Notes: generated from the letters alone by a model not told the origin. DNA of 64,000 bases from an uncultured bacterium (GCA_937879955.1 CALFMK010000001.1:5461-69460), one strand, 5' to 3'. Shown: positions 4,768 through 64,000, counted from the first letter of the stretch. Made by a program: numbers and translations.

Positions 4768-5802
4768 ATGCCCATCAACAAAGGTGCTGCTCCCGTGAAC
4801 ATTAACAACCGCAGGATCATCAACGGCGGAGACGCCGACGTGATGCAGCTCTACCCGATGAAGCACACGTTCGCGTGGGACGCGTACATGGCGGGTAACA
4901 GCAACCACTGGCTTCCGACGGAGATCAGCATGCAGCGCGACATCGAGCAGTGGAAGTCGACGACCGTGCTCTCGGACGACGAGCGCAGGGCGTTCGAGAC
5001 CGTGCTCGGATTCTTCACCACGGCCGATTCGATCGCCGCGAACAACATCGTGCTCGCCATCTACAAGCACATCACGAGCCCGGAGTGCCGCATGTACCTC
5101 CTGCGCCAGGGATACGAGGAGGCGATCCATACGCACGCGTACCAGTACATCGTGGAGTCGCTCGGCATGGACGAGTCGAAAATCTTCAACATGTACCGCG
5201 AGGTGGAGGCGATCTACAACAAGGACAACATGGTGCTGCGCCTCAACGAGGGCATCTTCTCGCCGGACTTCAAGACCGGCACGCTCGAGAACGACCAGCT
5301 CTTCGTGGAGAACCTCTGCGTCTTCTCGCTCATCATGGAAGGCATCTTCTTCTACAGCTCGTTCGCCGTCATGTTCGGCTTCCAGCGCCAGAACAAGCTC
5401 ACGGGCGCCGCGGAGCAGATCCAGTACATCATGCGCGACGAGTCCCAGCACCTTAACTTCGGCGTGAACCTGATTAACACGATCAAGGAGGAGCAGCCTG
5501 AGGTGTGGACCCCTGAGTTCCAGGAGCGCATCATCGGCATGGTGAAGCGCGCGGTGCAGCTCGAGTACGAGTTCGCTACCACGGTCTTCCCGAAGGGCAT
5601 CTTCGGCATGAACGCAGCAGGCTTCAAGCAGTACATCGAGCATATCGCCGACCGCCGTCTCGCGTCGGTAGGCCTTCCGGCGCAGTACAACGTCGAGAAC
5701 CCGTTCCCGTGGATGGGCGAGGCGGTGGACCTGAACAAGGAGAAGAATTTCTTCGAGACCCGCGTGACCGAGTACAAGACGGGCGGGCAGTTGAGCTGGT
5801 AA
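4768..5802 (+). CDS. nrdB: Ribonucleotide reductase beta subunit (class I R2, di-metal/tyrosyl radical protein).
   Basis: 344 aa with the R2 ferritin-like fold motifs (EEAIHTHAY...; EGIFFYSSF; DESQHLNFG). It sits directly downstream of nrdA. Confidence 0.93.
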   Translation: MPINKGAAPVNINNRRIINGGDADVMQLYPMKHTFAWDAYMAGNSNHWLPTEISMQRDIEQWKSTTVLSDDERRAFETVLGFFTTADSIAANNIVLAIYKHITSPECRMYLLRQGYEEAIHTHAYQYIVESLGMDESKIFNMYREVEAIYNKDNMVLRLNEGIFSPDFKTGTLENDQLFVENLCVFSLIMEGIFFYSSFAVMFGFQRQNKLTGAAEQIQYIMRDESQHLNFGVNLINTIKEEQPEVWTPEFQERIIGMVKRAVQLEYEFATTVFPKGIFGMNAAGFKQYIEHIADRRLASVGLPAQYNVENPFPWMGEAVDLNKEKNFFETRVTEYKTGGQLSW

Positions 5803-5824
5803 TCCTTCTTCCCGTGTTCAAAAA

Positions 5825-5853
5825 AGCGCTCCTTTACGGGAGTGCTTTGTTAT
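5825..5853 (+). terminator. Rho-independent terminator after nrdB.
   Basis: AGCGCTCC-TTTAC-GGGAGTGCT hairpin followed by TTTGTTAT. Confidence 0.6.
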
Positions 5854-5863
5854 ACTAATTCCG

Positions 5864-8257
5864 ATGAAACACGTGGGAAGGCTTCTGGTACTGCTTTTTG
5901 GTGCTTTTATCTTTCCGGGGATGGTCTCTGCAGCCACCTACTACGTTGATGCGACTCTCGGTAATAATTCGAATAACGGCACTGCCGCTAGTACCTCGTG
6001 GCAGACGCTCGCCAAAGTAAACGGCACTACATTCTTGGCTGGCGATAATATCCTCTTTAAGAAGGGAGAGACGTTTACTGGTGTGCTCGTAGCAGGCCAG
6101 AGTGGCACTAATGGGAATCCAATCACGTACGGCTCATATGGGGAGGGTGCGCGCCCAATTATTAATGCCGCTGGAAATAATCATGGATTCGACATCCGGA
6201 CAGGTAAGTCTTATATCAATGTAGCTGGCCTCGAAGTTCGAAACGCGACCTTGAACCAGTTTCTTCTGTTCGCTAATAGTTCGAATATATCGCACGTGTC
6301 CATCCAGGACTCGATAGCTGTAGGGGGAACGAGCGGATTCAATTTACAGGGACCAGGAACGTTTCTAGACATAACAATAAGTAGCAGTACCGCAAGCGGG
6401 TACGCGGGAGGTTCTGCGGTTGGTGTTCGCCTTGGTTCAGGAACCACTTTTGATGGAATTACTCTCGATGGAGTATCGGCGGCTTCTGGAAGTGGGTATC
6501 AGGGCTTCAGTACTGGATCGGGAACCTATTCAAATATTTCGATACTGAACTCATCGTTCACTGGGCATCCATCAAACGGTATTGCGTTTCTGTCTGCAAC
6601 GACGACTAACGTGGTCATTAGGGATACTGTAGCGAGCTTGAATGGAGGAAGTGGGATTTATTTCTTTGGTGTGAAGAGTGGAGTTGAGATTGATAACGTA
6701 ACAGCAAACTCAAATACCCAAAACGGAATAGGATTTGAAGCTGGTGCCATGAATCACATATCAATCGAAGACTCCGAGTTCAACAATAATGGACTTAATG
6801 GAATCGCACTTCTCGGAAGCGGAACCGGAACGTCAACAATCGTTTCTCGGTCGATTGCGTCTGGTAATGATAATGACGGTTTTAATATCTCTGGAAACTG
6901 GCAGAATGTCGTATTCGAGGAAGCGATCGCAAGTGATAATGGTGTAGATGGTATTGGCTCGAACGGAGACGGCTTCAGCTTTCACAACTCGAGCACCGGT
7001 GTAATTAGGAATAGCCAGGCACATAATAATTGGAAGTCAGCCGTAACAAACGTGAATACATCGAGCACGACGGTATATAACAACCTCTTTTCGCATGACA
7101 CCAACGGAACGAATGCCCTCATCACATTCCTAGACAGCGGAAGCCATGCTGCTTACAACAATGTGCTCTATAGCCCTGCACAGGTGGGGTATGGATTGGT
7201 CGCGAATGGTACAACGACACTCATAGCGAGGAATAATATTATTCAAGGTTTTCAGTACGGCGTATCGAAGGGGACGAATGCCTTCTTGGTAGAAGATTAC
7301 AATGACGTTTATGGAGCCAGTACGGCCTCCTACATTGGGCTTACTGGAGGTGTACATTCTATCTCTGTGAATCCAAAGTTTGTCGACGCTGAGGATGATG
7401 ATTTCCGACTACTTCAGTCCTCTCTTGCTATAAATGCAGGTACTACGACGCCCTATGTAACCGATTACCTCGGAAATCCACGCGTCGGCATTCCGGATAT
7501 GGGTGCATATGAGTATCAGGGAATACCTGATATAACAGCACCTTCTATCTACATAATTGCACCAGTGGATCCGGCTACGATATCTGGAACTGTAATTATT
7601 ACCGCATCAGCGACGGATGCTATCGGCGTAGAAGAAGTCGAATTTTTTCTAGATGGAGTATCGCTCGGGGATGATGCATCTGATCCTTATTCATTTTCAT
7701 GGAACTCATCTGCAGTTCCCGATGGCGTATACTCACTTCTCGCAGTTGCACATGATGCTGAAGGGAATTATGCCACCTCCTCTCCTGTCTCCGTCACGGT
7801 CTCGAATGTAATTCAGGAAGCGAGCCATCGCTCTGGTAAGTCCGGTCAGAGTGTCGTACGCACTATCTCTCCGCTCGCAGATTCTGTATTAAATGAAGGA
7901 GAAGCAAAGATATCATCAATAAATCGGCTCATACTCGATAATCGCGCACTTTTTATGCTTGCGCAGGAAAAGGGAATAGTAGTTCCTGAATTCATACTCA
8001 ATATGCTCGATCTCCCTTCGGGCTCGACCATTTCGATATTCTTTAATCGTCCTCTTGCGCTTGGAGCAACTGGCCCAGATGTCACTGCACTCCAGCAGAT
8101 TCTTAAGGATAAGGGCTTCTATGTTTATCAGGAGATAACCGGCTACTACGGACAAGCCACACTACAAGCTGTTGCTGACTACCAGAAGTCACTTGGGCTC
8201 GAATCTCTCGGGTATGTAGGTCCAGCAACAAGGGAAGCCTTGAATGCTGGGATTTGA
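5864..8257 (+). CDS. Exported right-handed beta-helix (pectate-lyase-like repeat) protein with an Ig-like domain and a C-terminal peptidoglycan-binding (PG_binding_1-like) domain.
   Basis: Signal peptide MKHVGRLLVLLFGAFIFPGMVSA. Many parallel beta-helix repeats (NxxGIxxxG, NNNGLNGIAL, SGNDNDGFNISGN...), then an Ig-like segment. The C-terminus reads ...ALGATGPDVTALQQILKDKGFYVYQEITGYYGQATLQAVADYQKSLGL. The gene is about 45% GC in a 66% GC genome. There is no SD. A TATACT sits 7 nt upstream of the ATG. Confidence 0.8.
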   Translation: MKHVGRLLVLLFGAFIFPGMVSAATYYVDATLGNNSNNGTAASTSWQTLAKVNGTTFLAGDNILFKKGETFTGVLVAGQSGTNGNPITYGSYGEGARPIINAAGNNHGFDIRTGKSYINVAGLEVRNATLNQFLLFANSSNISHVSIQDSIAVGGTSGFNLQGPGTFLDITISSSTASGYAGGSAVGVRLGSGTTFDGITLDGVSAASGSGYQGFSTGSGTYSNISILNSSFTGHPSNGIAFLSATTTNVVIRDTVASLNGGSGIYFFGVKSGVEIDNVTANSNTQNGIGFEAGAMNHISIEDSEFNNNGLNGIALLGSGTGTSTIVSRSIASGNDNDGFNISGNWQNVVFEEAIASDNGVDGIGSNGDGFSFHNSSTGVIRNSQAHNNWKSAVTNVNTSSTTVYNNLFSHDTNGTNALITFLDSGSHAAYNNVLYSPAQVGYGLVANGTTTLIARNNIIQGFQYGVSKGTNAFLVEDYNDVYGASTASYIGLTGGVHSISVNPKFVDAEDDDFRLLQSSLAINAGTTTPYVTDYLGNPRVGIPDMGAYEYQGIPDITAPSIYIIAPVDPATISGTVIITASATDAIGVEEVEFFLDGVSLGDDASDPYSFSWNSSAVPDGVYSLLAVAHDAEGNYATSSPVSVTVSNVIQEASHRSGKSGQSVVRTISPLADSVLNEGEAKISSINRLILDNRALFMLAQEKGIVVPEFILNMLDLPSGSTISIFFNRPLALGATGPDVTALQQILKDKGFYVYQEITGYYGQATLQAVADYQKSLGLESLGYVGPATREALNAGI

Positions 8258-8284
8258 ATTCTTCTAGAGGACGGCGATAATAAA

Positions 8285-8500
8285 CTATATATAACGTTTA
8301 ATTATCTCAACACTGCCCAAGGTCAGTATGTCTCTACCGACCACTCCGTTCTTACGGGTACTAATTACTTTAATAGCTTCTCGTTCGAGAAAGTACATTA
8401 CCGCAGTGTTCAGAATTAAATTCCTATCCCTCTCCTCTGTAACTAGTAAATCAATCGTTTCAAGGACATCCTCTGGAATATCAAGATTAATTTTAGACAC
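8285..8500 (-). CDS. Small ribbon-helix-helix (CopG/antitoxin-like) DNA-binding protein, tentative.
   Basis: 71 aa. The N-terminal strand-helix-helix pattern is INLDIPEDVLETIDLLVTEE...RNLILNTAVMYFLERE. It has a GTG start and no SD, and lies in the low-GC island. Confidence 0.35.
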   Translation of the reverse strand: MSKINLDIPEDVLETIDLLVTEERDRNLILNTAVMYFLEREAIKVISTRKNGVVGRDILTLGSVEIIKRYI

Positions 8501-8523
8501 TGTAAATTCTAAAAATTAAAGCT

Positions 8524-9003
8524 CTAGCTGAACTTCAGCATTTTCGTTTCTAAATTTTCCAGCAATATCTGATAACGCGCATCGAGAGGATTTAACTTGT
8601 AACGTATTTGACGTATAACGATTTTGTATAATTTCCCAACTTGCCCTCGCGTTTCTATACGAATACGGAAGGCTGCTGTCATTCCTGTTGGTATCTTGCA
8701 GTAAACTATCGTGCCTAGGGCAACTTGAGTTATGTTCTCTCCTCGGCATGAAATATCAGTTTTTAATATTGAACTCTGAGCCGTTCCTTCAATCTGATAT
8801 ACAAAACCGGTTGGCTTCTTGCCCGAGGCAACCGAAAGAGGAACGTATAGATCTTTCCGAGGAGCAGTTATGTTAATGATAAATATAAAATTCCCGATTA
8901 CGCGGTCAGGTCCATTAGGAATTCGCGTTCTCCTAAGATTCTCTTCAGTGTCTTTAATATCGACCAAGACATCTTTCTCCGGTGGAATGATTGGTTTATC
9001 CAT
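8524..9003 (-). CDS. Hypothetical protein (159 aa) in the low-GC island.
   Basis: An intact ORF immediately upstream of the RHH ORF on the same strand. It has no recognisable motifs and AT-rich codon usage like the island. Confidence 0.4.
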   Translation of the reverse strand: MDKPIIPPEKDVLVDIKDTEENLRRTRIPNGPDRVIGNFIFIINITAPRKDLYVPLSVASGKKPTGFVYQIEGTAQSSILKTDISCRGENITQVALGTIVYCKIPTGMTAAFRIRIETRGQVGKLYKIVIRQIRYKLNPLDARYQILLENLETKMLKFS

Positions 9004-9111
9004 ATAATCAGATAGCTCTTTGTATAAGATCAGTATGGGTTTAGGAATATGAAAAATATCTCAAAATTGCATAAAGTAATTATGGAGACAGTGGCAGAAA
9101 GCTGATCTAGT

Positions 9112-9148
9112 CACTTCGAAAAGAAGCACCGGACCACATGTCCGGTGC
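9112..9148 (-). terminator. Rho-independent terminator for the 9182..9484 gene.
   Basis: GCACCGGAC-CACAT-GTCCGGTGC hairpin, followed on the minus strand by CTTCTTTTCG. Confidence 0.55.
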
Positions 9149-9181
9149 TAACTAATATGAATCCTATAAGAAAGAGGCAAA

Positions 9182-9484
9182 TTACTTCTTACCCCAGCGC
9201 CATGATGGCTCTTCGCCAAAGCGTAGGCAGATCCGGTAGAGGGAATAGGAAAGAAGGGCGATAACGCCTGTGAACTCTAAGACTCCGAAAATGATGTCCC
9301 GGGCCCCTACATGGCTCTCGACCGCGGCACCGACCCATCCGAAGAATATAAGGAAGGCGAAGGTGAAGAGGAGGGCATAGAAGACCGTCACGGCCCATCC
9401 CTGCCATGAGACAGGGAACCAGCCCCACCCGAATTCCTTCGCCCGGAACCACAGCTTCCGGGCCTTCCTTTTGTGTTCGCTCAT
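9182..9484 (-). CDS. Small membrane protein (two predicted TM helices), function unknown.
   Basis: 100 aa. It has a basic N-terminus, a Trp-rich motif WFRAKEFGWGWFPVSWQGW and two hydrophobic spans. Confidence 0.6.
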   Translation of the reverse strand: MSEHKRKARKLWFRAKEFGWGWFPVSWQGWAVTVFYALLFTFAFLIFFGWVGAAVESHVGARDIIFGVLEFTGVIALLSYSLYRICLRFGEEPSWRWGKK

Positions 9485-9565
9485 GGGCTTATAATACTGT
9501 AAATAGGCCGTTTTATCCAGGCTTGACTCCTAAAAATGAGGGTCTCCTGAACATGAAGAATTGGC

Positions 9566-9594
9566 TTTCCACGTCTTGACAGTGGTTGTCAACC
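9566..9594 (+). promoter_or_regulatory. Sigma70-type promoter for the 3D-domain gene.
   Basis: TTGACA -35 box at about 9566-9571, a 17-nt spacer, then TACTAT at about 9589-9594. This lies about 50 nt upstream of the ATG at 9644. Confidence 0.5.
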
Positions 9595-9643
9595 CTGCTA
9601 CTATGGGCCTTGTCAGGCCGTCCGCAAGGGCGGTCTTTCATTT

Positions 9644-10258
9644 ATGCCAGTTATTGCAGTAGTAGCCCTTATGGGCTTCCTGTTTTTACCGGGTAGCGCA
9701 GGAGCGCCGGCACAAGCGGAGACGATTTCCGCGCCGGTCGCGATAGCGGGGGCGGCTGAAGAGCCTTCCAAACGCCTGGCCACCTCGAAAGAGGCGGCCC
9801 GGACCTACCAGGTAAGTATGACCGCTTACAATGCCGTTCCCGGCCAGACGGATGCCAACCCATTCGTCACCGCGAGCGGCATGGCCTCGAATCACGAGGT
9901 TGTGGCTGCGCGATCGCGCGATATGGCGGCTGAACTCCCGTTCGGCACCGTCATACGCTTCGAGCGCTCGACGAAGGACACGCCTTCGTGCCGTTTCGGC
10001 GAAGTCGAGCACTTGATGGGGTACCGCATCATCGCGGACACCATGCATGAGCGCTGGAGCCACAAGGTGGACGTGCTCTTCGACCAGACCGATACGGTCA
10101 TGGTCGAGGGACGCATCGTCAACCCGGCGCTCGCCCTCGGTATCTGCGACGACGTGACGATCACGGTCGTGGGAACTGTCGATATGACGGATCCGCCGAC
10201 CACGCAGGCCGAGCTCGCGGCGATGTTCGCCACGCCGACCTACGCGATAGCGAAATAA
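9644..10258 (+). CDS. Exported 3D-domain (YuiC/MltA-like double-psi beta-barrel) cell-wall protein.
   Basis: Signal peptide, then the motif YQVSMTAYNAVPGQTDANPFVTASGMASNHEVVAA...LPFGTVIRFE, which is characteristic of 3D-domain proteins. Confidence 0.72.
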   Translation: MPVIAVVALMGFLFLPGSAGAPAQAETISAPVAIAGAAEEPSKRLATSKEAARTYQVSMTAYNAVPGQTDANPFVTASGMASNHEVVAARSRDMAAELPFGTVIRFERSTKDTPSCRFGEVEHLMGYRIIADTMHERWSHKVDVLFDQTDTVMVEGRIVNPALALGICDDVTITVVGTVDMTDPPTTQAELAAMFATPTYAIAK

Positions 10259-10330
10259 ATGAATCTCCTTCATGAAGAGTCCTGCTCGTAAGAGCCGGGC
10301 TCTTCTTACGTTTGGTATACTGAACCCAGT

Positions 10331-11578
10331 ATGAACATCACCCCGAAGATCCTCGTCGCAGCCGCGCTCATGGCGACGTTCGCGGTCGCAGGCGCTATGC
10401 CCGCTACCGCGCTCGCGGCAAGTAGCAGGTCCTCCTCAAAATCCTCGATAGAGATATCGGGATGGATCCCGTACTGGAGGACGGAGCTCGGCACGAAGGA
10501 CGCGAAGGCGCACATCTCGCAGATGGCAGAGGTGAACCCGTTCGGCTACACGGTGACGAGTACCGGGAATCTGAACGACGCCATGAAGATCGGCGGCGCC
10601 GACTGGCAGAGCCTCATCGCAGCCGCGAAGAAGAAGGGCGTGAAGGTCATCCCGACGGTCATGTGGAGCGATACGGCGTCCATCTATAGCGTCCTCTCGA
10701 ACCCGGTCACGCGCGCGTCGCACGTGAAGGCTATCGCGAAGGCCGTTAAGGACAACGGCTTCGACGGCATCGACATCGACTACGAAGGCAAGACCGCGGA
10801 GACCCGCGTCTACTTCTCTGCGTTCCTCGCCGAGCTCAAGGCCGAGCTCGGCCGCAGCAAGCAGCTCGACTGCACCATCGAGGCCCGCATGCCGCTCGAG
10901 GCGCGCTTCTCGGGAACTCCTCCGGCGAACATCGAGTACGCGAACGACCTCCCGGAGATCAACAAGAGCTGCGATCGCGTGCGCATCATGACCTACGACC
11001 AGCAGACCGCAGACCTGCAGCTGAACGCATCGGCACGCCGCGCAGGCGAGATCTATGCGCCTGTGGCGGACGTGAAGTGGGTGGAGAAGGTCGTTGAGTA
11101 CATGGGCAAGGATATCGACAAGAAGAAGATGGTCCTCGGCGTCCCGACGTACGGCTATATCTACCAGATCATGCCGAACTCGGATGGCAGCGGCTACGGC
11201 TACACGAAGCTCGAGGCCTTCAATCCGGCGTACGCGACGCAGCTCGCGAAGGAGCTCGGCATCACGCCGGAGCGCAACCGCGCGGGCGAGATGTCCTTCA
11301 GCTACGTGCCGAAGGACCAGCCGGCCTCGCTCCCGACGCAGAGCGCGCTCTCGCGGCTCGCGCCGCGGAGCACCTCGTCGGCGAGCCTCGCTGCCGCAGG
11401 TGCCCTCGCGCTTGCGAAGAGCAAGAAGCAGCAGGCCCCGTTCGAGTACATCACCTGGAGCGACGCGGGCGCGATCAAGCAGAAGGTGGACCTCGCGAAG
11501 AAGATGAAGCTCGCGGGCGTGGCGGTCTTCAAGATCGACGGAGGATCCGACCCGAAGATGTGGGACGTGCTGAAGTAG
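10331..11578 (+). CDS. Exported glycoside hydrolase family 18 (chitinase-like) protein.
   Basis: Signal peptide. The GH18 catalytic motif is FDGIDIDYEGK (DxxDxDxE), in a (beta/alpha)8-like context (GWIPYW..., VMWSD...). A TATACT sits 9 nt upstream of the ATG. Confidence 0.8.
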   Translation: MNITPKILVAAALMATFAVAGAMPATALAASSRSSSKSSIEISGWIPYWRTELGTKDAKAHISQMAEVNPFGYTVTSTGNLNDAMKIGGADWQSLIAAAKKKGVKVIPTVMWSDTASIYSVLSNPVTRASHVKAIAKAVKDNGFDGIDIDYEGKTAETRVYFSAFLAELKAELGRSKQLDCTIEARMPLEARFSGTPPANIEYANDLPEINKSCDRVRIMTYDQQTADLQLNASARRAGEIYAPVADVKWVEKVVEYMGKDIDKKKMVLGVPTYGYIYQIMPNSDGSGYGYTKLEAFNPAYATQLAKELGITPERNRAGEMSFSYVPKDQPASLPTQSALSRLAPRSTSSASLAAAGALALAKSKKQQAPFEYITWSDAGAIKQKVDLAKKMKLAGVAVFKIDGGSDPKMWDVLK

Positions 11579-11622
11579 AACGTGAGACACGAGAAAAGCC
11601 CCTGCGCGAGCGGGGGCTTTTC

Positions 11623-11970
11623 CTATTCCGTCGTTTGCTGGATGTCCTGCGTCTGTTCGTCGAGCATGTCGATGAGTGCGGCGTAATAGGTCGGACGCGT
11701 AGCAACCTTCTCTTCCGTAGCTGCGTTAATCGCGCGTATCGCGTCCTCGAGCGTGAATCCGGCAATAGCGGCCCGCGTCTCTTCCTTGCGTGCATCGCTC
11801 CAGAGGGACATATCGGCGCCGGGCCCGTACGTCTCGCCGACCATTCGTCGCACGCTCGCTTCCTTCGCCATGTCCAGAGCGCCGGTCTCTGCGGCCGGAC
11901 TCTCGGAGAGGTTGTCATTCGCTGCGGCATTCGGGAACTGCAGGATCTTTCCGAACGGTCTTCCTTCCAT
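11623..11970 (-). CDS. Hypothetical acidic protein.
   Basis: The ORF was trimmed to an internal ATG (MEGRPFGKILQF...). It has no recognisable domains. Confidence 0.45.
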   Translation of the reverse strand: MEGRPFGKILQFPNAAANDNLSESPAAETGALDMAKEASVRRMVGETYGPGADMSLWSDARKEETRAAIAGFTLEDAIRAINAATEEKVATRPTYYAALIDMLDEQTQDIQQTTE

Positions 11971-11992
11971 GGGTATGTAAATCCTAGTAGTG

Positions 11993-12874
11993 CTAATCGA
12001 ACAGCTCCGCAAGGTACTCGTCGATGGTGCGCTGGTCGAGGTCGTAGAACCACGCGTCATCGTCGTGCAGCCGCTCGGCGAGGTCCCTGCCTACGAAGCG
12101 CCAGTGCCACGGCTCGTACTGGTAGTACGTGTTGCCCTTGGGGTAGGAGAGCACAAAGCCGTACTTCCAGGCGTTCTTCGTGAGCCATTCGTACTCCTCG
12201 GTCTTGTCGAAGCCAGCGAACGTTCCGCCCACCGTCGTCGTCGTGAAGTCGACGGCGGTGCCGAGCTGGTGCTCGGAGTAGCCCTGATCTGCGGAGAACG
12301 AATTGGCTCCGGACCCGTACTTCACGGTGTAGCCGGACTTGAGCGACGCCTGGTTCGCGAACGAGCGGTACGAGGACGCCACCTTGAGGTCGAGGCCGTC
12401 CTCCTTCGCGTCGTCGAGCAGGTCCTCGAGGAACGGGTCTACGTCGGCATGTATCTCGTACGCGCGTCCCTCCTGGAACGCGTACGCGGCATCGATAACG
12501 GTCAGTCTCGACGGGACGTAGTTCTCGTTCAGGAAGTAGACCTTCGAGTACTTCGCGAGCAGCTCGGGATCGGTCTTCGCGAGCTTCTCGAGGGTCCCTA
12601 CGGTCCCCGAGAGGTCCTTGAGCTGGCTCTCGAACTTACCGTTCTTCTGCTGCTCGCGCCGGAGCTCCCCGGCGAGGCTGATGCTCTCCTCGGTCTTCTC
12701 GCCGAGCTTTCCGGTAAGCTCGGCCTCCTTCGCCTCGGCCGTCGCACGGGCCTCGGTAAGCGCGCTCTTCGCCGCCGCCAGCTCTGACGAGAGGGAATAG
12801 AGGCCGTACATCGCGAACCCTGCGAGCGCGAGGACGACGAGGCCGATGAGTGCGAGAAGGGTGCTGCGGGACAT
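11993..12874 (-). CDS. Membrane-anchored VanY-type D,D-carboxypeptidase (peptidase M15B) with a coiled-coil linker.
   Basis: N-terminal TM segment. The M15 motifs are SGYSEHQLGTAVD and EPWHWRFVG, with the Zn-ligand pattern of VanY-like D-Ala-D-Ala carboxypeptidases. Confidence 0.85.
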   Translation of the reverse strand: MSRSTLLALIGLVVLALAGFAMYGLYSLSSELAAAKSALTEARATAEAKEAELTGKLGEKTEESISLAGELRREQQKNGKFESQLKDLSGTVGTLEKLAKTDPELLAKYSKVYFLNENYVPSRLTVIDAAYAFQEGRAYEIHADVDPFLEDLLDDAKEDGLDLKVASSYRSFANQASLKSGYTVKYGSGANSFSADQGYSEHQLGTAVDFTTTTVGGTFAGFDKTEEYEWLTKNAWKYGFVLSYPKGNTYYQYEPWHWRFVGRDLAERLHDDDAWFYDLDQRTIDEYLAELFD

Positions 12875-28569: not shown

Positions 28570-28684
28570 AGCTATTTCTCCCTAGGCTGAAGAGGACGGA
28601 CTGGGACCACTATACTCCTGCCCTGTCCAGTAGGGAACAGCCACTTTTGCGGTGCGCGGGACAGGGCCGTATACTGGACGCACT

Positions 28685-46676: not shown

Positions 46677-49343
46677 ATGAAAGACACGGCAACGTGGCAC
46701 GCCCTTGCGCTATCGGATGCGGCCGAGTACCTGGAGACTGATCATGTGAGAGGGCTCTCGCGTGACGAAGCGGCGAAGCGCCTCCTTCAGGGTGCGAATC
46801 GCATGCCCGAGCCCGAACGGGATGGCTTTCTCATGCGGCTCCTAAAGCAGTTCGCGAGCCCCATAACGCTCGTGCTCGTGGCGGCGAGCATCGCGACCCT
46901 GCTGCTCTCGCACGTGACCGACTCGCTCGTCATCCTCGCTGCGCTCCTCGTGAACGTCGTCATGGGGCTCGTACAGGAGGGGAGGGCCTCCCGCGCGTTC
47001 GAAGCGCTCAAGGAAGGCGAGGCGCGCTTCGCGATGGTGATCCGCGGCGGCGAGCCGCTGCGCATCCCCGCCGAGGAGCTCGTGCCAGGCGATCTCGTCA
47101 TGCTCTCGACCGGGAACGCGGTCCCTGCCGACCTGCGCCTCGTGGAGACGCACGGGCTCTCCGTCAACGAGTCCGCGCTCTCGGGCGAATGGATGGCGGT
47201 CGAGAAGGATACTGAAGGAACGCATGAGGAAGCCCCGCTCGTGGAGCGCACCGGCATGGCGTACGCGGGGACGCTCATCGCAGCGGGCGCGGGTAAGGGC
47301 ATCGTCGTCGCGACCGGAAGCAAGACCGAGCTCGGCAAGATCGCGCTCGAGCTCGGGAAGAAGGACGAGTCCGTCACGCCGCTCATGCGCGACATACGGC
47401 AGGTGGCCCGCCTTATCCTGATCGTCGTCTCCTTCGTTATCGTGGGAATCGTCGCGCTCGGCCTGTTGCGCGGGCTCCCGCTCGACGAGTCCCTGTTCAC
47501 GGCTATCGCGCTCGCGGTGGCGTCCGTCCCCGAGGGGCTCCCGGCCGCGGTGACGGTCGTGCTCGCGCTCGGCATGGAGCGCATCCTCACGTCCGGCGGC
47601 CTCGTCCGCAACCTGCTCGCGGCCGAGACGCTCGGGACGACGAGCATCATCCTCACCGACAAGACCGGTACGCTCACCGAAGGCCGCATGACGCTCGAGC
47701 GGTACGTCGGGAAGTCAGGATCGGCGGGAGCGGCAGACGACACCGAGCCCGCCATGCTCCTCACGGGCGCGGTCCTGGCATCGAACGCGTACGTGGAGGA
47801 GGTCCAGGGCGCCCCGGAGAGCGAGCGGCTCGTGGTGCACGGCAGGCCCATCGAGGCGGCCATCGTCACGGCGGGCCTCGCGTACGGCGTCGAGCAGCAC
47901 GTGCTCCTTTTGGAGCGTCCGCGCATCGACGAGCTGCACTTCGATTCCTCCCGCCGCTTCGGCGGCATGATCGTACGGGAAGGAGGCGTGCCTGTCGCGT
48001 ACGTGACCGGCGCGCCTGAGCTCTTCCTCGCCTCCGTGAAGACGGTGCGGGACGGGGACGGTACGGACCATCCGATCGCGGGCGCGGCCCTTTCGCACTT
48101 CGAGGACGCGCTCTCCGAAGCTGCCGCGAGCGGAAAGCGCGTGATCGCGGTGGCGCGCATCCCTGCGGGAGACGCGTTCCCGTCTGAGGATGCGCTCCCG
48201 GCGTTCCTCGCGACAGGCTCTTTGCTCGGGCTCCTCGTCTTCTCGGACGTCATACGCCCTGAGGCGGCGCGCGCGATACAGGACATGCGCGCGGCAGGCG
48301 CGCGCGTGATCATGCTCACGGGGGACAATCCGGAGACTGCGCTCTCCATCGCGCGCACGGTCGGCATCGCCACGGACGCCGAGGAGCGCGCCTATACGGG
48401 TGCCGAGCTCTCCGGTCTCTCGGATGCCGAGCTCCTCTCTGTGCTGCGCGAGCATGTCGTCTTCGCGCGCGTGGCGCCTGCCGAGAAGCTCCGCATCGCA
48501 ACCGTGCTCAAGGACGCGGGCGAGGTCGTCGCCATGACGGGCGACGGCGTGAACGACGCGCCCGCGCTGCGCTCCGCCGCCATCGGCATCGCGCTCGGCT
48601 CCGGCACCGACGTCGCGAAGGAGGCTTCGGACCTCGTACTCCTCGACAACGGCTTCTCCGTGATAACGGCGGCGATACGCGAAGGGCGCCGCCTGCGTGA
48701 CAATTTCAAGAAGATATTCGCGTACATGCTCTCGACGAACTTCAGCGAGGTCTCGCTCATCGCGTTCTCGCTCATCGTCGGACTGCCGCTCCCGATCCTG
48801 CCGACGCAGATCCTCTGGTCCAACCTCGTGGAGGGCGGGCTCATGAACTTCGCGTTCGCGTTCGAGCCCCTGTATCCGGACGCCATGAAGCGCGGCCCGA
48901 AGGACCCGGAGACCGCGCGCGTGCTCTCGCCGAAGCTCCTCCGGCTCATCGGCGTGGTGGGTACCATAACCTCGGTCACGCTCATCGGCGTCTATACGTA
49001 TCTCATCTATCTCACGGACCTCGCCCTGCCTGAGATCCAGACGCTCATGTTCGTCGCGGTCTCCGTGAACTGCATCTTCATGGCGTTCTCGATGAAGAGC
49101 TTCGGCACGCCGCTCTGGAAGCTCCCGCTCTTCTCGAACATGTTCCTCCTCGTCTCGCTGCTCGGCAGCGCAGCGCTCCTCTTCGCCGCGCTCTACGTCC
49201 CGATGCTCCAGATGCTCGTGCACGTGTCTCCGCCGACCGTGCTTCAGATTCTGATGCTCGTTGGATTCGGCTTCGTGAACCTCGCCACCATCGAGCTCGC
49301 GAAATGGATCGTGTTCATACGCCCGCAGCGGAATCCGGTATAA
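46677..49343 (+). CDS. P-type cation-transporting ATPase (type II, Ca2+/Mg2+-like).
   Basis: The phosphorylation motif is DKTGTLT. The hinge is TGDGVNDAPAL. A Cation_ATPase_N-like N-terminus is present, and there are about 10 TM helices. A TATACT sits 6 nt upstream of the ATG. Confidence 0.9.
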   Translation: MKDTATWHALALSDAAEYLETDHVRGLSRDEAAKRLLQGANRMPEPERDGFLMRLLKQFASPITLVLVAASIATLLLSHVTDSLVILAALLVNVVMGLVQEGRASRAFEALKEGEARFAMVIRGGEPLRIPAEELVPGDLVMLSTGNAVPADLRLVETHGLSVNESALSGEWMAVEKDTEGTHEEAPLVERTGMAYAGTLIAAGAGKGIVVATGSKTELGKIALELGKKDESVTPLMRDIRQVARLILIVVSFVIVGIVALGLLRGLPLDESLFTAIALAVASVPEGLPAAVTVVLALGMERILTSGGLVRNLLAAETLGTTSIILTDKTGTLTEGRMTLERYVGKSGSAGAADDTEPAMLLTGAVLASNAYVEEVQGAPESERLVVHGRPIEAAIVTAGLAYGVEQHVLLLERPRIDELHFDSSRRFGGMIVREGGVPVAYVTGAPELFLASVKTVRDGDGTDHPIAGAALSHFEDALSEAAASGKRVIAVARIPAGDAFPSEDALPAFLATGSLLGLLVFSDVIRPEAARAIQDMRAAGARVIMLTGDNPETALSIARTVGIATDAEERAYTGAELSGLSDAELLSVLREHVVFARVAPAEKLRIATVLKDAGEVVAMTGDGVNDAPALRSAAIGIALGSGTDVAKEASDLVLLDNGFSVITAAIREGRRLRDNFKKIFAYMLSTNFSEVSLIAFSLIVGLPLPILPTQILWSNLVEGGLMNFAFAFEPLYPDAMKRGPKDPETARVLSPKLLRLIGVVGTITSVTLIGVYTYLIYLTDLALPEIQTLMFVAVSVNCIFMAFSMKSFGTPLWKLPLFSNMFLLVSLLGSAALLFAALYVPMLQMLVHVSPPTVLQILMLVGFGFVNLATIELAKWIVFIRPQRNPV

Positions 49344-49350
49344 TCAGGGC

Positions 49351-62368: not shown

Positions 62369-62552
62369 GGCACGGACCTTTCCTAAAGAGCGATACCGAG
62401 CTCTTCCGCTAGTATGCGCTCCGCCGGGGATTTGTTAAGCAGAAAGGCACTCGACTTTATCTTTTCTTTATCTCTCGTACATACACTGAGCCGGGTAGTT
62501 CTTTCATCCTGCAAGGTCGCCCGTAGCGACTGCGCATGAATACCCGCATAGG

Positions 62553-62590
62553 GGAGAGCGAACCGTCCGTCAGGGCGGTTCGCTCTTTAG
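62553..62590 (+). terminator. Rho-independent terminator ending a possible small RNA.
   Basis: AGAGCGAACCG-(tccgtcaggg)-CGGTTCGCTCT followed by TTAG. The next gene has its own TATAGT box 10 nt upstream of its ATG. Confidence 0.6.
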
Positions 62591-62648
62591 TGGTGTAATA
62601 TTTTAGCCCTAAACACGGTACGCGCACGGTGCTATAGTCGAGGTATCT

Positions 62649-63014
62649 ATGCCTTGGCCACGAGTGGGGGACTGGTTGGAGAGGATCAGTAAATCGAACG
62701 CGCTCTATCCGCTCCTCATAGCGCTATGCCTCTCCGTCGCGTTCGCCGGTACGGTCATAGCATTCGTACCGAACGTTCTCATCCAGGTCATCGTCTGTAT
62801 ACCAGTGCTGATGATCGTATTCCAGATCGTCCGGAGCTTCGAGTACTTCTCCAAGAACAACCCGGACATGCTCCGGACCGAGACGCATGTGATCCAGCAG
62901 CGCGTCCTCGAGATGATGGGGGACGAGTCCGGCGTCGTGCACGCGACTGCGGCCGACCTGGTAGCCATAACGAATCCTGCGAATACCCAGGATAGAATCG
63001 AAAACCATGGCTAA
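62649..63014 (+). CDS. Membrane protein (121 aa).
   Basis: Two TM helices (LYPLLIALCLSVAFAGTVIAFV; IQVIVCIPVLMIVFQIV). Confidence 0.55.
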   Translation: MPWPRVGDWLERISKSNALYPLLIALCLSVAFAGTVIAFVPNVLIQVIVCIPVLMIVFQIVRSFEYFSKNNPDMLRTETHVIQQRVLEMMGDESGVVHATAADLVAITNPANTQDRIENHG

Positions 63015-63294
63015 CATCTATCTTATCGCCGTAAAGAATGATGATTCCTTCAATGTTAAGGAATTCCATAAATTTGTTAAGGAAAAACTCTATCCTGAGC
63101 ATGTGGGCGGTTGGTGGCATTACGTTTCTGGACCAACCTATCTCGTTAAGTCGGAAACACTTGATGCTAAGGGAATATCCGAAATCATCACCCAGTTCAC
63201 TGGCAAGCAGAGTCATCTTGTTACCAAGATCGATCTAGAAGATATCGAAGGAATGTTGCCGGCTCGCGCATGGGACTGGCTCGGACTCTACTAA
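63007..63294 (+). CDS. Hypothetical protein in the terminal low-GC island (95 aa).
   Basis: Intact ORF at about 40% GC. No motifs recognised. Confidence 0.45.
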   Translation: MANIYLIAVKNDDSFNVKEFHKFVKEKLYPEHVGGWWHYVSGPTYLVKSETLDAKGISEIITQFTGKQSHLVTKIDLEDIEGMLPARAWDWLGLY

Positions 63295-63512
63295 TGGAGC
63301 ACATCACACTTCAAGAGTATGAAGATACTGATGGAACGAGGATGGAGCTCGGTATCCAGTATGACGAAGCTACCTACCAGTTCATCGTTTCCGGAACGCC
63401 AATTAATGGCAATGGGGCGTATGAGGCAGGGAAGACGCCCATTTTCGCATCCTTCCCGACCCTCGAAGAAGCAAGGATGTTCGTAGAAAAGAGTTTCACT
63501 AAGATCTCCTAG
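63295..63512 (+). CDS. Hypothetical protein in the terminal low-GC island (72 aa).
   Basis: Its ATG directly follows the upstream stop (TAATGG). No motifs recognised. Confidence 0.4.
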
Positions 63513-63571
63513 GAATCTTCGGTTTATTTTTTCTCCAGGATTCCTTTATCCGGGGCTGGTAGGGTTCGGAT

Positions 63572-64000
63572 ATGGCAATGGTAGAAGAAAATCTGATACT
63601 TTCCCTCTTGAAGAAAGAGTTTCCGAAGGCGCCCGAACAGGTATTGAGACAATGGCTTGCTCCAGCTGTTAAGAAGGACGGTTGGCCACCGACCGGACTT
63701 CATTGGATCGGTGTATTGGGGAAAAGGGATCTGGATTTCTGGAAAAAGAAGGAATGGTCCCTTAAGGACGTTAACCTCGAAGAAGCTTCCTGGGATTACG
63801 ATACTAGGTACGCGGCAGAAAAGGTGCTCGAAGGGTTTGTTGCATCTCAAGAATCTGAAGTCCTCTTCTCTGATTCTCATGAGAAGCAGAAGGTCATACG
63901 AGCACTTAAGCACCTTTCAGTCGAAGGAAGCTTCTTCGAGCCGATAACCGCATTTCTCGTAGAAAACGAATCTGGTGGCTACTCGCTCGTAGACGGATTC
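63572..64000 (+). CDS. Hypothetical protein, 5' fragment running off the window. Its reading frame stays open to the window end.
   Basis: A 143-codon open frame (MAMVEENLILSLLKKEFPKAPEQVLRQWLAPAVKKDGWPP...) with no stop before 64000. It is low GC. I prefer it over the overlapping minus-strand ORF 63524..63913, which has low-complexity, junk-like composition. Confidence 0.4.
   Translation, partial: MAMVEENLILSLLKKEFPKAPEQVLRQWLAPAVKKDGWPPTGLHWIGVLGKRDLDFWKKKEWSLKDVNLEEASWDYDTRYAAEKVLEGFVASQESEVLFSDSHEKQKVIRALKHLSVEGSFFEPITAFLVENESGGYSLVDGF

What the first reader, a model, noticed from the sequence alone, without database searches (positions are those of the whole stretch)
5853..9180. Low-GC island encoding a beta-helix/Ig/PG-binding surface protein plus two small ORFs
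GC drops from about 66% to about 45% exactly after the nrdB terminator. It recovers at about 9.2 kb. The island genes lack SD sequences, and no integrase or tRNA is adjacent. The cargo is a 797-aa exported parallel beta-helix protein. Its fold is like polysaccharide lyases, depolymerases and adhesins. It is tethered by a C-terminal peptidoglycan-binding domain. There is also an RHH-like 71-aa ORF and an unknown 159-aa ORF. This is probable horizontal acquisition of a cell-surface or wall-modifying function.
Basis: seen in the sequence. Interest (0 to 1): 0.6.

Follow-up and report, generated by a model that had tools for sequence, protein, structure and literature searches.

The report
Swappable low-GC surface-protein cassette in Paceibacteria
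A 3.4-kb low-GC stretch in a tiny high-GC candidate-phyla-radiation bacterium is a real foreign-looking cassette that encodes a wall-anchored beta-helix surface protein; related strains carry very different versions at the same spot, so it is an ordinary variable genomic island, not a new kind of system.

Summary
The low-GC segment is real. Window 5803-9181 has 44.6% GC (GC3 0.36-0.43). The rest has about 64% (GC3 about 0.9), and the island's 1-kb windows lie 6.5-8.7 SD below background. It sits between the convergent terminators of nrdB and a 100-aa membrane-protein gene, in a roughly 0.59-Mb Paceibacteria (Parcubacteria, CPR) contig.

The contents are confirmed: a 797-aa protein (signal peptide, beta-helix, Big_7, PG_binding_1) and a 159-aa + 71-aa gene pair on the other strand, both under purifying selection.

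More distant relatives have nrdB abutting the membrane gene (one 34-bp hairpin), small ORFs, or a type IV pilus operon at this site. The cassette therefore occupies a variable slot.

A sibling with about 95% DNA identity carries the same three genes in the same order, equally low in GC. Island dS there is 0.7 to saturated, against 0.05-0.19 in the flanks. The genealogy of the 159-aa gene also conflicts with the adjacent core gene. This is a recombining, hypervariable surface-protein cassette, not a one-off recent import.

There is no integrase, tRNA, flanking repeat or phage gene. Lack of SD is common among the host genes too. The RHH call is unproven. It is a known kind of feature (flexible genomic island), of modest interest for CPR host-interaction biology.

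The parts
4768..5802 (+). nrdB (left core flank), GC3 0.92
   Evidence: Pfam Ribonuc_red_sm 2.7e-88. It is 99.4% identical to the L084 protein, dS 0.19.
5823..5848 (+). nrdB terminator hairpin; left edge of the divergent low-GC segment
   Evidence: RNA fold -18.3 kcal/mol, z -5.15. DNA identity to L084 drops from 0.92 to 0.50 at 5800. This hairpin is absent in L084, where the beta-helix gene starts 17 bp after nrdB.
5864..8257 (+). 797-aa exported beta-helix / Big_7 / PG_binding_1 protein (BH797). Predicted signal peptide aa 1-23 (5864-5932), beta-helix aa 24-555 (5933-7528), Ig-like Big_7 aa 560-647 (7541-7804), disordered and helical linker aa 650-730, PG_binding_1 aa 736-793 (8069-8242).
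   Evidence: Pfam. AlphaFold2 model pLDDT 86.9. Foldseek matches to GH136, PL9 and PL6 enzymes and to phage tailspikes. GC3 0.43. The signal peptide is read from the sequence (K/R n-region, hydrophobic core, VSA|A); an A-x-A motif before ATYYVD is conserved in homologues.
8285..8500 (-). 71-aa gene (o71), GTG start; possible ribbon-helix-helix regulator (unproven)
   Evidence: Only two homologues in 5.8 billion proteins, both beside o159 alleles. dN/dS 0.13 against L084. The best PDB profile hit is CopG 7by2, E 0.79. No significant Pfam hit.
8524..9003 (-). 159-aa gene (o159): conserved Paceibacteria beta-sandwich protein of unknown function
   Evidence: At least 176 homologues at 45-88% identity, none with a Pfam domain. 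dN/dS 0.11. AF2 pLDDT 88.2, all-beta. No PDB match at E<1e-3. The domain recurs in large PG_binding_1/PKD proteins.
9033..9088 (-). Conserved non-coding element upstream of o159. It holds an AATTAC-N5-GYAATT inverted repeat and is a candidate promoter/operator.
   Evidence: Nearly invariant in four alleles whose coding dS is 0.3-1.3. The 30-nt core at 9052-9081 is unique in the window, with 0 expected by chance. It is found only upstream of the four linked o159 alleles among 131 loci.
9125..9149 (-). Terminator of the 100-aa membrane-protein gene; right edge of the divergent segment
   Evidence: Terminator scan: 10-pair stem plus T-run. Fold. Identity to L084 is 0.56 at 9100-9200 and 0.98 from 9200.
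9182..9484 (-). 100-aa membrane-protein gene (m100), right core flank
   Evidence: 100% identical to the L084 protein, dS 0.09. Its homologue abuts nrdB in L098, L096, L091, L092 and L005.

Best explanation
The segment is a flexible ('replacement-type') genomic island. It occupies a variable slot between the convergent core genes nrdB and a 100-aa membrane-protein gene, in a high-GC Paceibacteria (Parcubacteria, CPR) genome.

**Cargo**
1. A protein with a Sec-type signal peptide, a roughly 530-residue right-handed beta-helix, an Ig-like spacer, a flexible linker and a C-terminal PG_binding_1 domain.
2. A two-gene operon on the opposite strand: o159 (a conserved beta-sandwich protein) followed by o71 (a small, possibly DNA-binding protein). 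A strongly conserved palindromic upstream element precedes it.

**Origin (shown)**
- The cassette is absent from the same site in more distant relatives.
- It is present in the nearest relatives as highly divergent alleles.
- Its gene genealogy disagrees with the flanking core gene.

**Origin (inferred)**
The cassette entered this clade horizontally. It has since been swapped between lineages by homologous recombination through the conserved flanks, drawing on a gene pool of lower GC.

**Function (inferred)**
The beta-helix protein is exported. It is held at peptidoglycan by its C-terminal domain, either the cell's own wall or a partner's. It presents a depolymerase-like groove that binds or cleaves a surface polysaccharide. 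Allelic turnover reflects diversifying pressure on that interaction, from host or partner specificity or from phage or host recognition.
For: **Composition**
- 44.6% against about 64% GC; GC3 0.36-0.43 against about 0.9; z -6.5 to -8.7.

**State of the same site in relatives**
- Empty or nearly empty in L098 (34-bp hairpin), L096, L091, L092 and L005.
- A 7-kb type IV pilus operon in L089/L102 and L006.
- Unrelated low-GC ORFs directly after nrdB in L008 and L012.

**Same cassette in the closest relative, L084**
- Flanks are 94.7-95.4% identical in DNA.
- DNA identity falls exactly at the nrdB stop to 0.5-0.7, is 0.78-0.90 across o71 and o159, and returns to 0.98-1.00 at the m100 stop.
- dS is 0.05-0.19 in six flanking genes, 0.72 (o159), 0.84 (o71) and saturated in the beta-helix gene. 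dN/dS is about 0.1 for the small genes.

**Genealogical conflict**
- m100: window-L084 dS 0.09, window-L104 dS 0.78.
- o159: window-L104 dS 0.31, window-L084 dS 0.72.

**Beta-helix homologues elsewhere**
- They sit at other loci in other Paceibacteria: ddl-yceG in L001 and L002, the dcw cluster in L106.
- Their GC3 is 0.43-0.56 whatever the host GC3 (0.45-0.9).
- The Ig module is swapped between alleles: Big_7, DUF5123-like or Bact_surface_Ig-like.

**Fold and function**
- Pfam domains and an AF2 model at pLDDT 86.9.
- Foldseek hits to GH136, PL9 and PL6 enzymes and to phage tailspike depolymerases.
- A conserved polar cluster D338/D362/D369/H374/K391 in the helix.
- Highly expressed PG-binding extracellular proteins of Paceibacteria have been proposed as host-attachment factors (PMC10936435).
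- Genomic islands, and transfers mostly between Patescibacteria, have been reported (PMC12455944).
Against: - No mobility gene, tRNA, att-like repeat or phage gene was found, so the transfer route is unknown.
- No close donor was sampled. The best homologue of the beta-helix protein is only 62% identical.
- The cassette stays low in GC in four lineages whose neighbouring core gene differs by dS 0.6-0.9. Polarised substitutions on the window branch show no drift toward high GC: 8 AT>GC against 10 GC>AT, small numbers. Long residence with a local compositional equilibrium is therefore not excluded.
- No catalytic residues were verified, and no family-specific CAZy-type Pfam model hit the window protein. 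It could be a non-enzymatic adhesin.
- The roles of o159 and o71 are unknown. o159 occurs alone in other contexts (L086, L131).
Confidence: 0.7

Rival explanations
1. This is a single recent horizontal acquisition private to this genome. That is the first reader's reading: a foreign block dropped in after nrdB.
For: Strong, unameliorated GC3 contrast. Empty sites in several relatives.
Against: The same three genes, in the same order, at the same site and at the same low GC, are present in the roughly 95%-identical relative L084. Parts of the cassette are present in L085 and L104. Allele divergence of dS 0.3-1.3 shows a long history at this locus.
Confidence: 0.08
2. The locus is ancestral and vertically inherited. 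It merely evolves fast under positive selection, and its low GC has a local cause such as expression or silencing constraints. No horizontal exchange is involved.
For: Same position and architecture in four lineages. Low GC3 is maintained in all of them. No amelioration signal on the window branch. No mobility genes.
Against: Positive selection raises dN, not dS. Here dS is 4-10 times the flank value or saturated, while dN/dS is about 0.1 for o71 and o159. The o159 genealogy contradicts that of the adjacent m100. The site is empty in five relatives spanning 47-63% GC. Beta-helix homologues lie at unrelated loci elsewhere.
Confidence: 0.15
3. This is a prophage remnant or phage-derived tailspike/depolymerase module.
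For: Foldseek lists phage tailspikes and depolymerases among the matches. The PG_binding_1 domain matches PHROG endolysin families.
Against: No other phage-like gene lies in or beside the island. o159 has no relative in IMG/VR. Beta-helix hits in IMG/VR are only remote, at 26-32% over the helix. The PHROG hits cover only the PG-binding domain. The closest homologues are chromosomal Paceibacteria genes with the same architecture.
Confidence: 0.04
4. This is a metagenome assembly chimera that joins a low-GC organism's fragment into a high-GC contig.
For: The composition change is abrupt and falls at intergenic hairpins.
Against: The nrdB/beta-helix and m100/o159 junctions recur in independent assemblies from different runs: SRR14271336, SRR8426596, SRR14366756 and ERZ27297709. 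The identical 797-aa protein is recorded on a single 591-kb contig from NCBI, ENA and Logan.
Confidence: 0.02

Closest known systems
Replacement-type flexible genomic islands / hypervariable cell-surface loci (for example O-antigen, capsule or surface-protein islands exchanged by homologous recombination through conserved flanks). This comparison is from general knowledge.
   Same: Fixed chromosomal position between conserved core genes. Very divergent alleles in near-identical genomes. Deviant GC. Cell-envelope function. No integrase or tRNA. Genealogy incongruent with the flanks.
   Different: The cargo is a single modular surface protein plus a two-gene operon of unknown function, not a glycosyltransferase cluster. 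The host is a roughly 0.6-Mb CPR bacterium. The same slot holds a type IV pilus operon in other lineages.
Genomic islands of Patescibacteria reported from aquifer MAGs (PMC12455944)
   Same: Composition-deviant blocks in streamlined CPR genomes. Most transfers are inferred to be between Patescibacteria.
   Different: That survey used IslandViewer/MetaCHIP predictions. It did not describe this locus or allelic replacement at a fixed site.
Right-handed parallel beta-helix carbohydrate-active enzymes (GH136 lacto-N-biosidase LnbX/TnX, PL9 pectate lyase Pel9A and rhamnogalacturonan lyase, PL6 alginate lyases) and phage tailspike depolymerases
   Same: Fold: Foldseek E 7e-14 to 1e-4, probability 1.0. 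N-terminal cap sequence similarity to 7v6m and 6kqs. A conserved Asp/His/Lys cluster in the middle of the helix.
   Different: Sequence identity is only 9-18%. No family-specific HMM hit for the window protein. Catalytic residues were not verified. The C-terminal Ig plus PG_binding_1 anchor is not part of those enzymes.
Highly expressed extracellular PG-binding-domain proteins of archaea-parasitising Paceibacteria (PMC10936435)
   Same: Same bacterial class. Secreted multi-domain proteins with PG-binding and Ig-like domains, proposed to mediate host attachment.
   Different: That paper does not mention a beta-helix (0 occurrences of 'helix' in its text).
CopG/Arc/MetJ ribbon-helix-helix regulators
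   Same: o71 has the size and the N-terminal strand-helix-helix pattern. The top PDB profile hit is a CopG regulator aligned over residues 1-41. A palindromic conserved element lies upstream of the operon.
   Different: The match is not significant (E 0.79). There is no Pfam RHH hit. No structure was predicted for o71.

Membership tests
Classical integrase-mediated genomic island | Deviant base composition and sporadic distribution among relatives | tested here: met
   GC 44.6% against 64%, GC3 0.4 against 0.9. Absent from the site in L098, L096, L091, L092 and L005.
Classical integrase-mediated genomic island | Integrase or recombinase gene, insertion at a tRNA/tmRNA gene, flanking direct repeats | tested here: not met
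   No integrase domain in the neighbours scanned. Nearest tRNA at 18.77 kb. No boundary repeats.
Replacement-type flexible genomic island | Same chromosomal slot in closely related genomes, with conserved flanks and highly divergent content | tested here: met
   Window against L084: flanks 95-100% identical, island 50-87%, with breakpoints at the nrdB and m100 stop codons. dS 0.05-0.19 in flanks against 0.7 to saturated in the island.
Replacement-type flexible genomic island | Island genealogy incongruent with the flanking core genes (recombination) | tested here: met
   m100 and o159 pairwise dS rank the four lineages differently. Only pairwise distances on two short genes were used; no formal recombination test was run.
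Replacement-type flexible genomic island | Cargo acts at the cell surface | tested here: inconclusive
   The signal peptide (by inspection), the PG_binding_1 domain and the beta-helix fold support this for the 797-aa protein. Localisation was not measured, and the roles of o159 and o71 are unknown.
Right-handed parallel beta-helix fold (Pfam clan Pec_lyase-like) | Beta_helix repeats and a three-faced parallel helix | tested here: met
   PF13229 1e-13. The AF2 model has regular three-strand coils across residues 25-550, pLDDT mostly >90. Foldseek probability 1.0 to many beta-helix enzymes.
PL9 pectate lyase / GH136 / PL6 enzymes | Family-specific profile match and the family's catalytic residues (Ca2+-binding Asp residues with a Lys base in PL9; catalytic Asp pair in GH136) | tested here: inconclusive
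PG_binding_1 (PF01471) wall-binding module | Significant match to the three-helix PG-binding domain | tested here: met
   E 1e-13, residues 736-793, full-length profile match. PDB matches to 4lpq and SleB 6tci. The AF2 model has three helices at 738-795. Actual binding was not tested.
Ribbon-helix-helix (CopG/Arc/MetJ) regulator (o71) | Significant profile match or a predicted RHH fold | tested here: inconclusive
   Best hit CopG 7by2, E 0.79. No Pfam RHH hit at E<=10.
Type II toxin-antitoxin pair (o159/o71) | Recognisable toxin family, obligate pairing of the two genes | tested here: not met
   No Pfam, PADLOC, NCBIfam or PHROG toxin match. o159 occurs without any o71 partner in L086 and L131.
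Prophage / phage tailspike | Neighbouring phage structural or lysis genes, close viral homologues | tested here: not met
   None adjacent. o159 is absent from IMG/VR. Only remote beta-helix hits there.
Diversity-generating retroelement target | Template/variable repeat pair and a reverse transcriptase nearby | tested here: not met
   The longest repeat in 5600-9600 is 27 nt at 70% identity. Divergence spans the whole island, not a short variable region.

The most novel reading that the evidence does not exclude
The cassette is a dedicated, horizontally circulating 'host-range module' of episymbiotic Paceibacteria. In this reading it is a wall-anchored, tailspike-like polysaccharide depolymerase whose receptor-binding part is swapped between lineages much as phages swap tailspikes. 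It would travel with its own regulatory pair (o71 acting on the conserved palindrome, plus the o159 beta-sandwich). It would belong to a pan-lineage gene pool that keeps its own low-GC composition inside genomes of up to 64% GC.
Probability: 0.2. Interest if true: 0.6.

Novelty: new member of a known kind. Interest (0 to 1): 0.38.

Why it matters
CPR/Patescibacteria are thought to live attached to other cells, but the proteins that set partner specificity are largely unknown. This locus differs strongly between near-identical genomes, encodes a wall-anchored depolymerase-like protein, and shares its chromosomal slot with a type IV pilus operon in sister lineages. That makes it a concrete candidate for a specificity determinant and a marker for strain-level tracking in metagenomes. 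It also gives a clean case of allelic replacement by recombination in a roughly 0.6-Mb streamlined genome. Finally, it poses a small compositional puzzle: low GC3 persists beside GC3 of about 0.9. As a genomic phenomenon it is of a familiar kind.

Tried and rejected
- **Exact look-up of the 797-aa protein's contig.** This failed twice, although the identical protein is in the collection on a 591-kb contig. The source record and organism name were not obtained.
- **Phage origin.** IMG/VR scans found no o159 relative and only remote beta-helix proteins. PHROG hits cover only the PG-binding domain.
- **Defence system.** No credible PADLOC hit.
- **Toxin-antitoxin reading of o159/o71.** No toxin family matched, and o159 stands alone elsewhere.
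- **DGR-driven hypervariation.** No template/variable repeat was found.
- **att sites or transposon ends.** None at the boundaries.
- **Rfam.** Only two tRNAs in the whole window, nothing in the island.
- **Fold of o159.** No PDB match at E<1e-3. The best BFVD hit is an uncharacterised giant-virus protein at TM 0.47.
- **Paralogues.** No second copy of any island gene occurs in the 64-kb window.
- **SD analysis.** The ORF set used includes spurious antisense ORFs, so the 14/70 figure is only indicative.


Full report
**1.

In 400-nt windows GC is 0.58-0.66 up to 5.8 kb. It is 0.45-0.49 from 5.8 to 8.4 kb and 0.375-0.41 from 8.2 to 9.2 kb. It returns to 0.62 by 9.6 kb.

The segment 5853-9180 is 44.6% GC, against 63.7% for the rest of the window. 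Its three 1-kb windows lie 6.5-8.7 SD below 57 background windows, whose lowest value is 0.592.

The contrast is synonymous. GC3 is 0.43, 0.36 and 0.38 for the three island genes. It is 0.89-0.92 for nrdA, nrdB, GH18 and VanY, while GC1 and GC2 barely differ.

The edges are two hairpins:
- The nrdB terminator at 5823-5848 (-18.3 kcal/mol, z -5.15).
- The terminator of the convergent 100-aa gene at 9149-9125.

No tRNA lies nearer than 18.77 kb. No integrase domain was found in the neighbours, and there are no boundary repeats.

**2. The organism**

The identical 797-aa protein is recorded on one 591,393-bp contig. NrdB relatives at 80-93% identity, and the o159 homologues that carry names, come from Patescibacteria: Paceibacteria, Parcubacteria, Kaiserbacteria and Minisyncoccia MAGs.

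SD-like motifs are uncommon in host-composition genes as well. nrdA, nrdB, GH18 and VanY have none, and about 14 of 70 ORFs in a crude set have one. Many genes, including the 797-aa gene (TATACT, 7 nt before the ATG), carry a -10-like hexamer 5-9 nt upstream of the start codon. This suggests leaderless transcripts (inference). Lack of SD therefore does not mark the island as foreign.

**3. The genes**

*BH797 (5864-8257, + strand)*
- Pfam: Beta_helix (1e-13), Big_7 (1.6e-18) and PG_binding_1 (1e-13).
- The N-terminus reads as a Sec signal peptide, MKHVGRLLVLLFGAFIFPGMVSA|AT (by inspection). An A-x-A motif before ATYYVD is conserved in homologues.
- An AlphaFold2 model built on 29 homologues has pLDDT 86.9. 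It shows a regular beta-helix (25-550), an Ig domain (560-647), a disordered linker (650-684) and a three-helix PG-binding domain (738-795).
- Foldseek finds GH136 lacto-N-biosidases (E 7e-14), PL9 Pel9A and rhamnogalacturonan lyase, PL6 alginate lyases, mannuronan epimerases, and phage tailspikes and depolymerases. All are at 9-18% identity. Sequence similarity to GH136 covers only the N-terminal cap.
- D338, D362, D369, H374 and K391 are conserved across the family. That pattern is compatible with an active site, but it was not superposed on any enzyme.

*o159 (8524-9003, - strand)*
- It belongs to a family of at least 176 clusters at 45-88% identity, with no Pfam domain.
- Its model (pLDDT 88.2) is an all-beta sandwich with no informative structural match.
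- A profile search of 1.84 billion representatives finds 75 hits. They include 600-1200-aa proteins in which the module sits beside PG_binding_1, PKD and Ig-like domains.

*o71 (8285-8500, - strand)*
- It has only two homologues, each next to an o159 allele.
- Its best PDB profile match is a CopG regulator at E 0.79, so the RHH reading is a lead, not a result.

Both small genes are under purifying selection against L084: dN/dS 0.11 and 0.13.

**4. Comparative evidence**

Using NrdB and the 204-aa neighbour as anchors, I fetched loci from genomes and metagenomes. The core order nrdA-nrdB | m100-p204-GH18-VanY recurs widely.

The slot between nrdB and m100 holds different things in different lineages:

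| Locus or loci | Content of the slot |
|---|---|
| L098 | a 34-bp hairpin only |
| L096, L091, L092, L005 | 0.4-0.7 kb |
| L089/L102, L006 | about 7 kb: a type IV pilus operon (PilB, PilC, pilins); L089 also has an HTH_17/Fic pair |
| Window, L084 | the beta-helix cassette |

L084 changes the picture. Its flanks match the window at 94.7-95.4% DNA identity. NrdA is 99.5%, NrdB 99.4%, m100 100% and GH18 98% identical. Yet it holds the same three genes in the same order:
- a beta-helix protein only 45% identical over the helix, with a different Ig-type module;
- o71 at 82% identity;
- o159 at 84% identity.

DNA identity drops from 0.92 to 0.50 exactly at the nrdB stop. It is 0.78-0.90 over o71 and o159, and jumps back to 0.98-1.00 at the m100 stop.

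Synonymous divergence is 0.05-0.19 in six flanking genes. It is 0.72 in o159, 0.84 in o71 and saturated in the beta-helix gene. Selection on protein sequence cannot produce that. The island alleles coalesce much deeper than the backbone.

L085 and L104 also have o159 beside m100. Pairwise dS ranks the lineages differently for the two adjacent genes:

| Gene | Window-L084 | Window-L104 |
|---|---|---|
| m100 | 0.09 | 0.78 |
| o159 | 0.72 | 0.31 |

This is the signature of recombinational exchange of the cassette between lineages.

**5. The wider beta-helix family**

Proteins with the same architecture (signal peptide, beta-helix, Ig-type domain, PG_binding_1) occur in other Paceibacteria at other loci:
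- between ddl and yceG/ATP synthase in L001 and L002;
- within the dcw cluster in L106;
- elsewhere in L105.

Their GC3 stays at 0.43-0.56 whether the host genes are at 0.45 or 0.9. In the 50%-GC genome L001 the gene looks native. In high-GC genomes it always looks foreign. Relatives that share this backbone range from 46% to 63% GC, so lower-GC donors exist within the group.

**6. What remains unexplained**

- In all four lineages o159 keeps GC3 at 0.36-0.46, next to m100 at 0.69-0.74. Polarised changes on the window branch are balanced: 8 AT>GC against 10 GC>AT (small numbers). Either alleles arrive repeatedly from mid-GC donors, or the cassette has its own compositional equilibrium.
- A 56-nt element upstream of o159 (9033-9088, - strand) is almost invariant in four alleles. 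It contains an AATTAC-N5-GTAATT palindrome and is unique in the window. It may be an operator for o71. This is untested.
- o159 has no signal peptide, although its domain occurs in wall-associated proteins.

**7. Verdict**

The cassette is a shared, recombining, hypervariable locus in a variable slot, of the familiar 'replacement flexible island' kind. It has no integrase, tRNA, repeats or phage genes. Genomic islands in Patescibacteria and PG-binding extracellular proteins in Paceibacteria have already been described (PMC12455944, PMC10936435).

I rate it a new member of a known kind, with moderate-to-low interest. Its main value is as a candidate partner-specificity determinant in CPR bacteria.

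Noticed in passing
window 62400-64000: A second lower-GC zone (0.44-0.55 against about 0.64) begins near 62.4 kb and runs off the end of the window. It holds only small ORFs (121, 95 and 80 aa). It may be another island.
   Followed up: partly
L089 2407-9544, L102, L006 7113-14528: In other lineages the same nrdB/m100 slot holds a roughly 7-kb type IV pilus operon: PilB-like ATPase, PilC-like T2SSF and four or five pilins. In L089 there is also an HTH_17 + Fic pair next to m100.
   Followed up: yes
L084 3683-4893 (corresponds to window 10259-10330): The near-identical relative has an extra 1.2-kb low-GC insert (GC3 0.43-0.47) between p204 and GH18. It encodes 97-aa and 153-aa (UCP014422) proteins and is absent from the window. 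This is a second variable spot 1 kb away.
   Followed up: partly
window 9033-9088 (- strand): A 56-nt non-coding element upstream of o159 is almost invariant in four alleles and contains an AATTAC-N5-GYAATT inverted repeat. It is far more conserved than the synonymous sites of the adjacent gene.
   Followed up: partly
window-wide, e.g. 5850-5863, 10316-10330, 49336-49350, 28670-28684: Many genes have a -10-like hexamer (TATACT, TATAAT, TAGAAT) 5-9 nt before the start codon and no SD. This suggests widespread leaderless mRNAs in this genome.
   Followed up: partly
proteins P0260, P0266, P0270, P0276 (not in the window): The o159 beta-sandwich occurs as a module, sometimes repeated, in 600-1200-aa proteins that carry N-terminal PG_binding_1 plus PKD or Ig-like domains. 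This hints at a cell-wall-associated role for the fold.
   Followed up: partly
L002 5000-13000: Another high-GC Paceibacteria genome (GC3 about 0.8) has an 8-kb low-GC island (GC3 0.29-0.44) between ddl and yceG. It combines Zn-ribbon, TPR and trypsin-like genes with a 904-aa homologue of the beta-helix protein.
   Followed up: partly
L008 11036-13400, L012 11036-12800: Two further relatives carry unrelated low-GC ORFs directly after nrdB, mostly membrane or unknown proteins. The 3' side of nrdB is therefore variable across the group.
   Followed up: partly
loci L005, L089, L092, L091, L096, L098 against the window: Genomes that share this gene order, with 87-95% NrdB identity, range from 46% to 63% GC. 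Base composition is unusually labile among these relatives.
   Followed up: no
window 9644-12874: The core neighbours of the island are wall-related: a secreted 204-aa protein with no Pfam hit, a GH18 family protein (7.4e-33) and a VanY D,D-carboxypeptidase (8.2e-33).
   Followed up: partly
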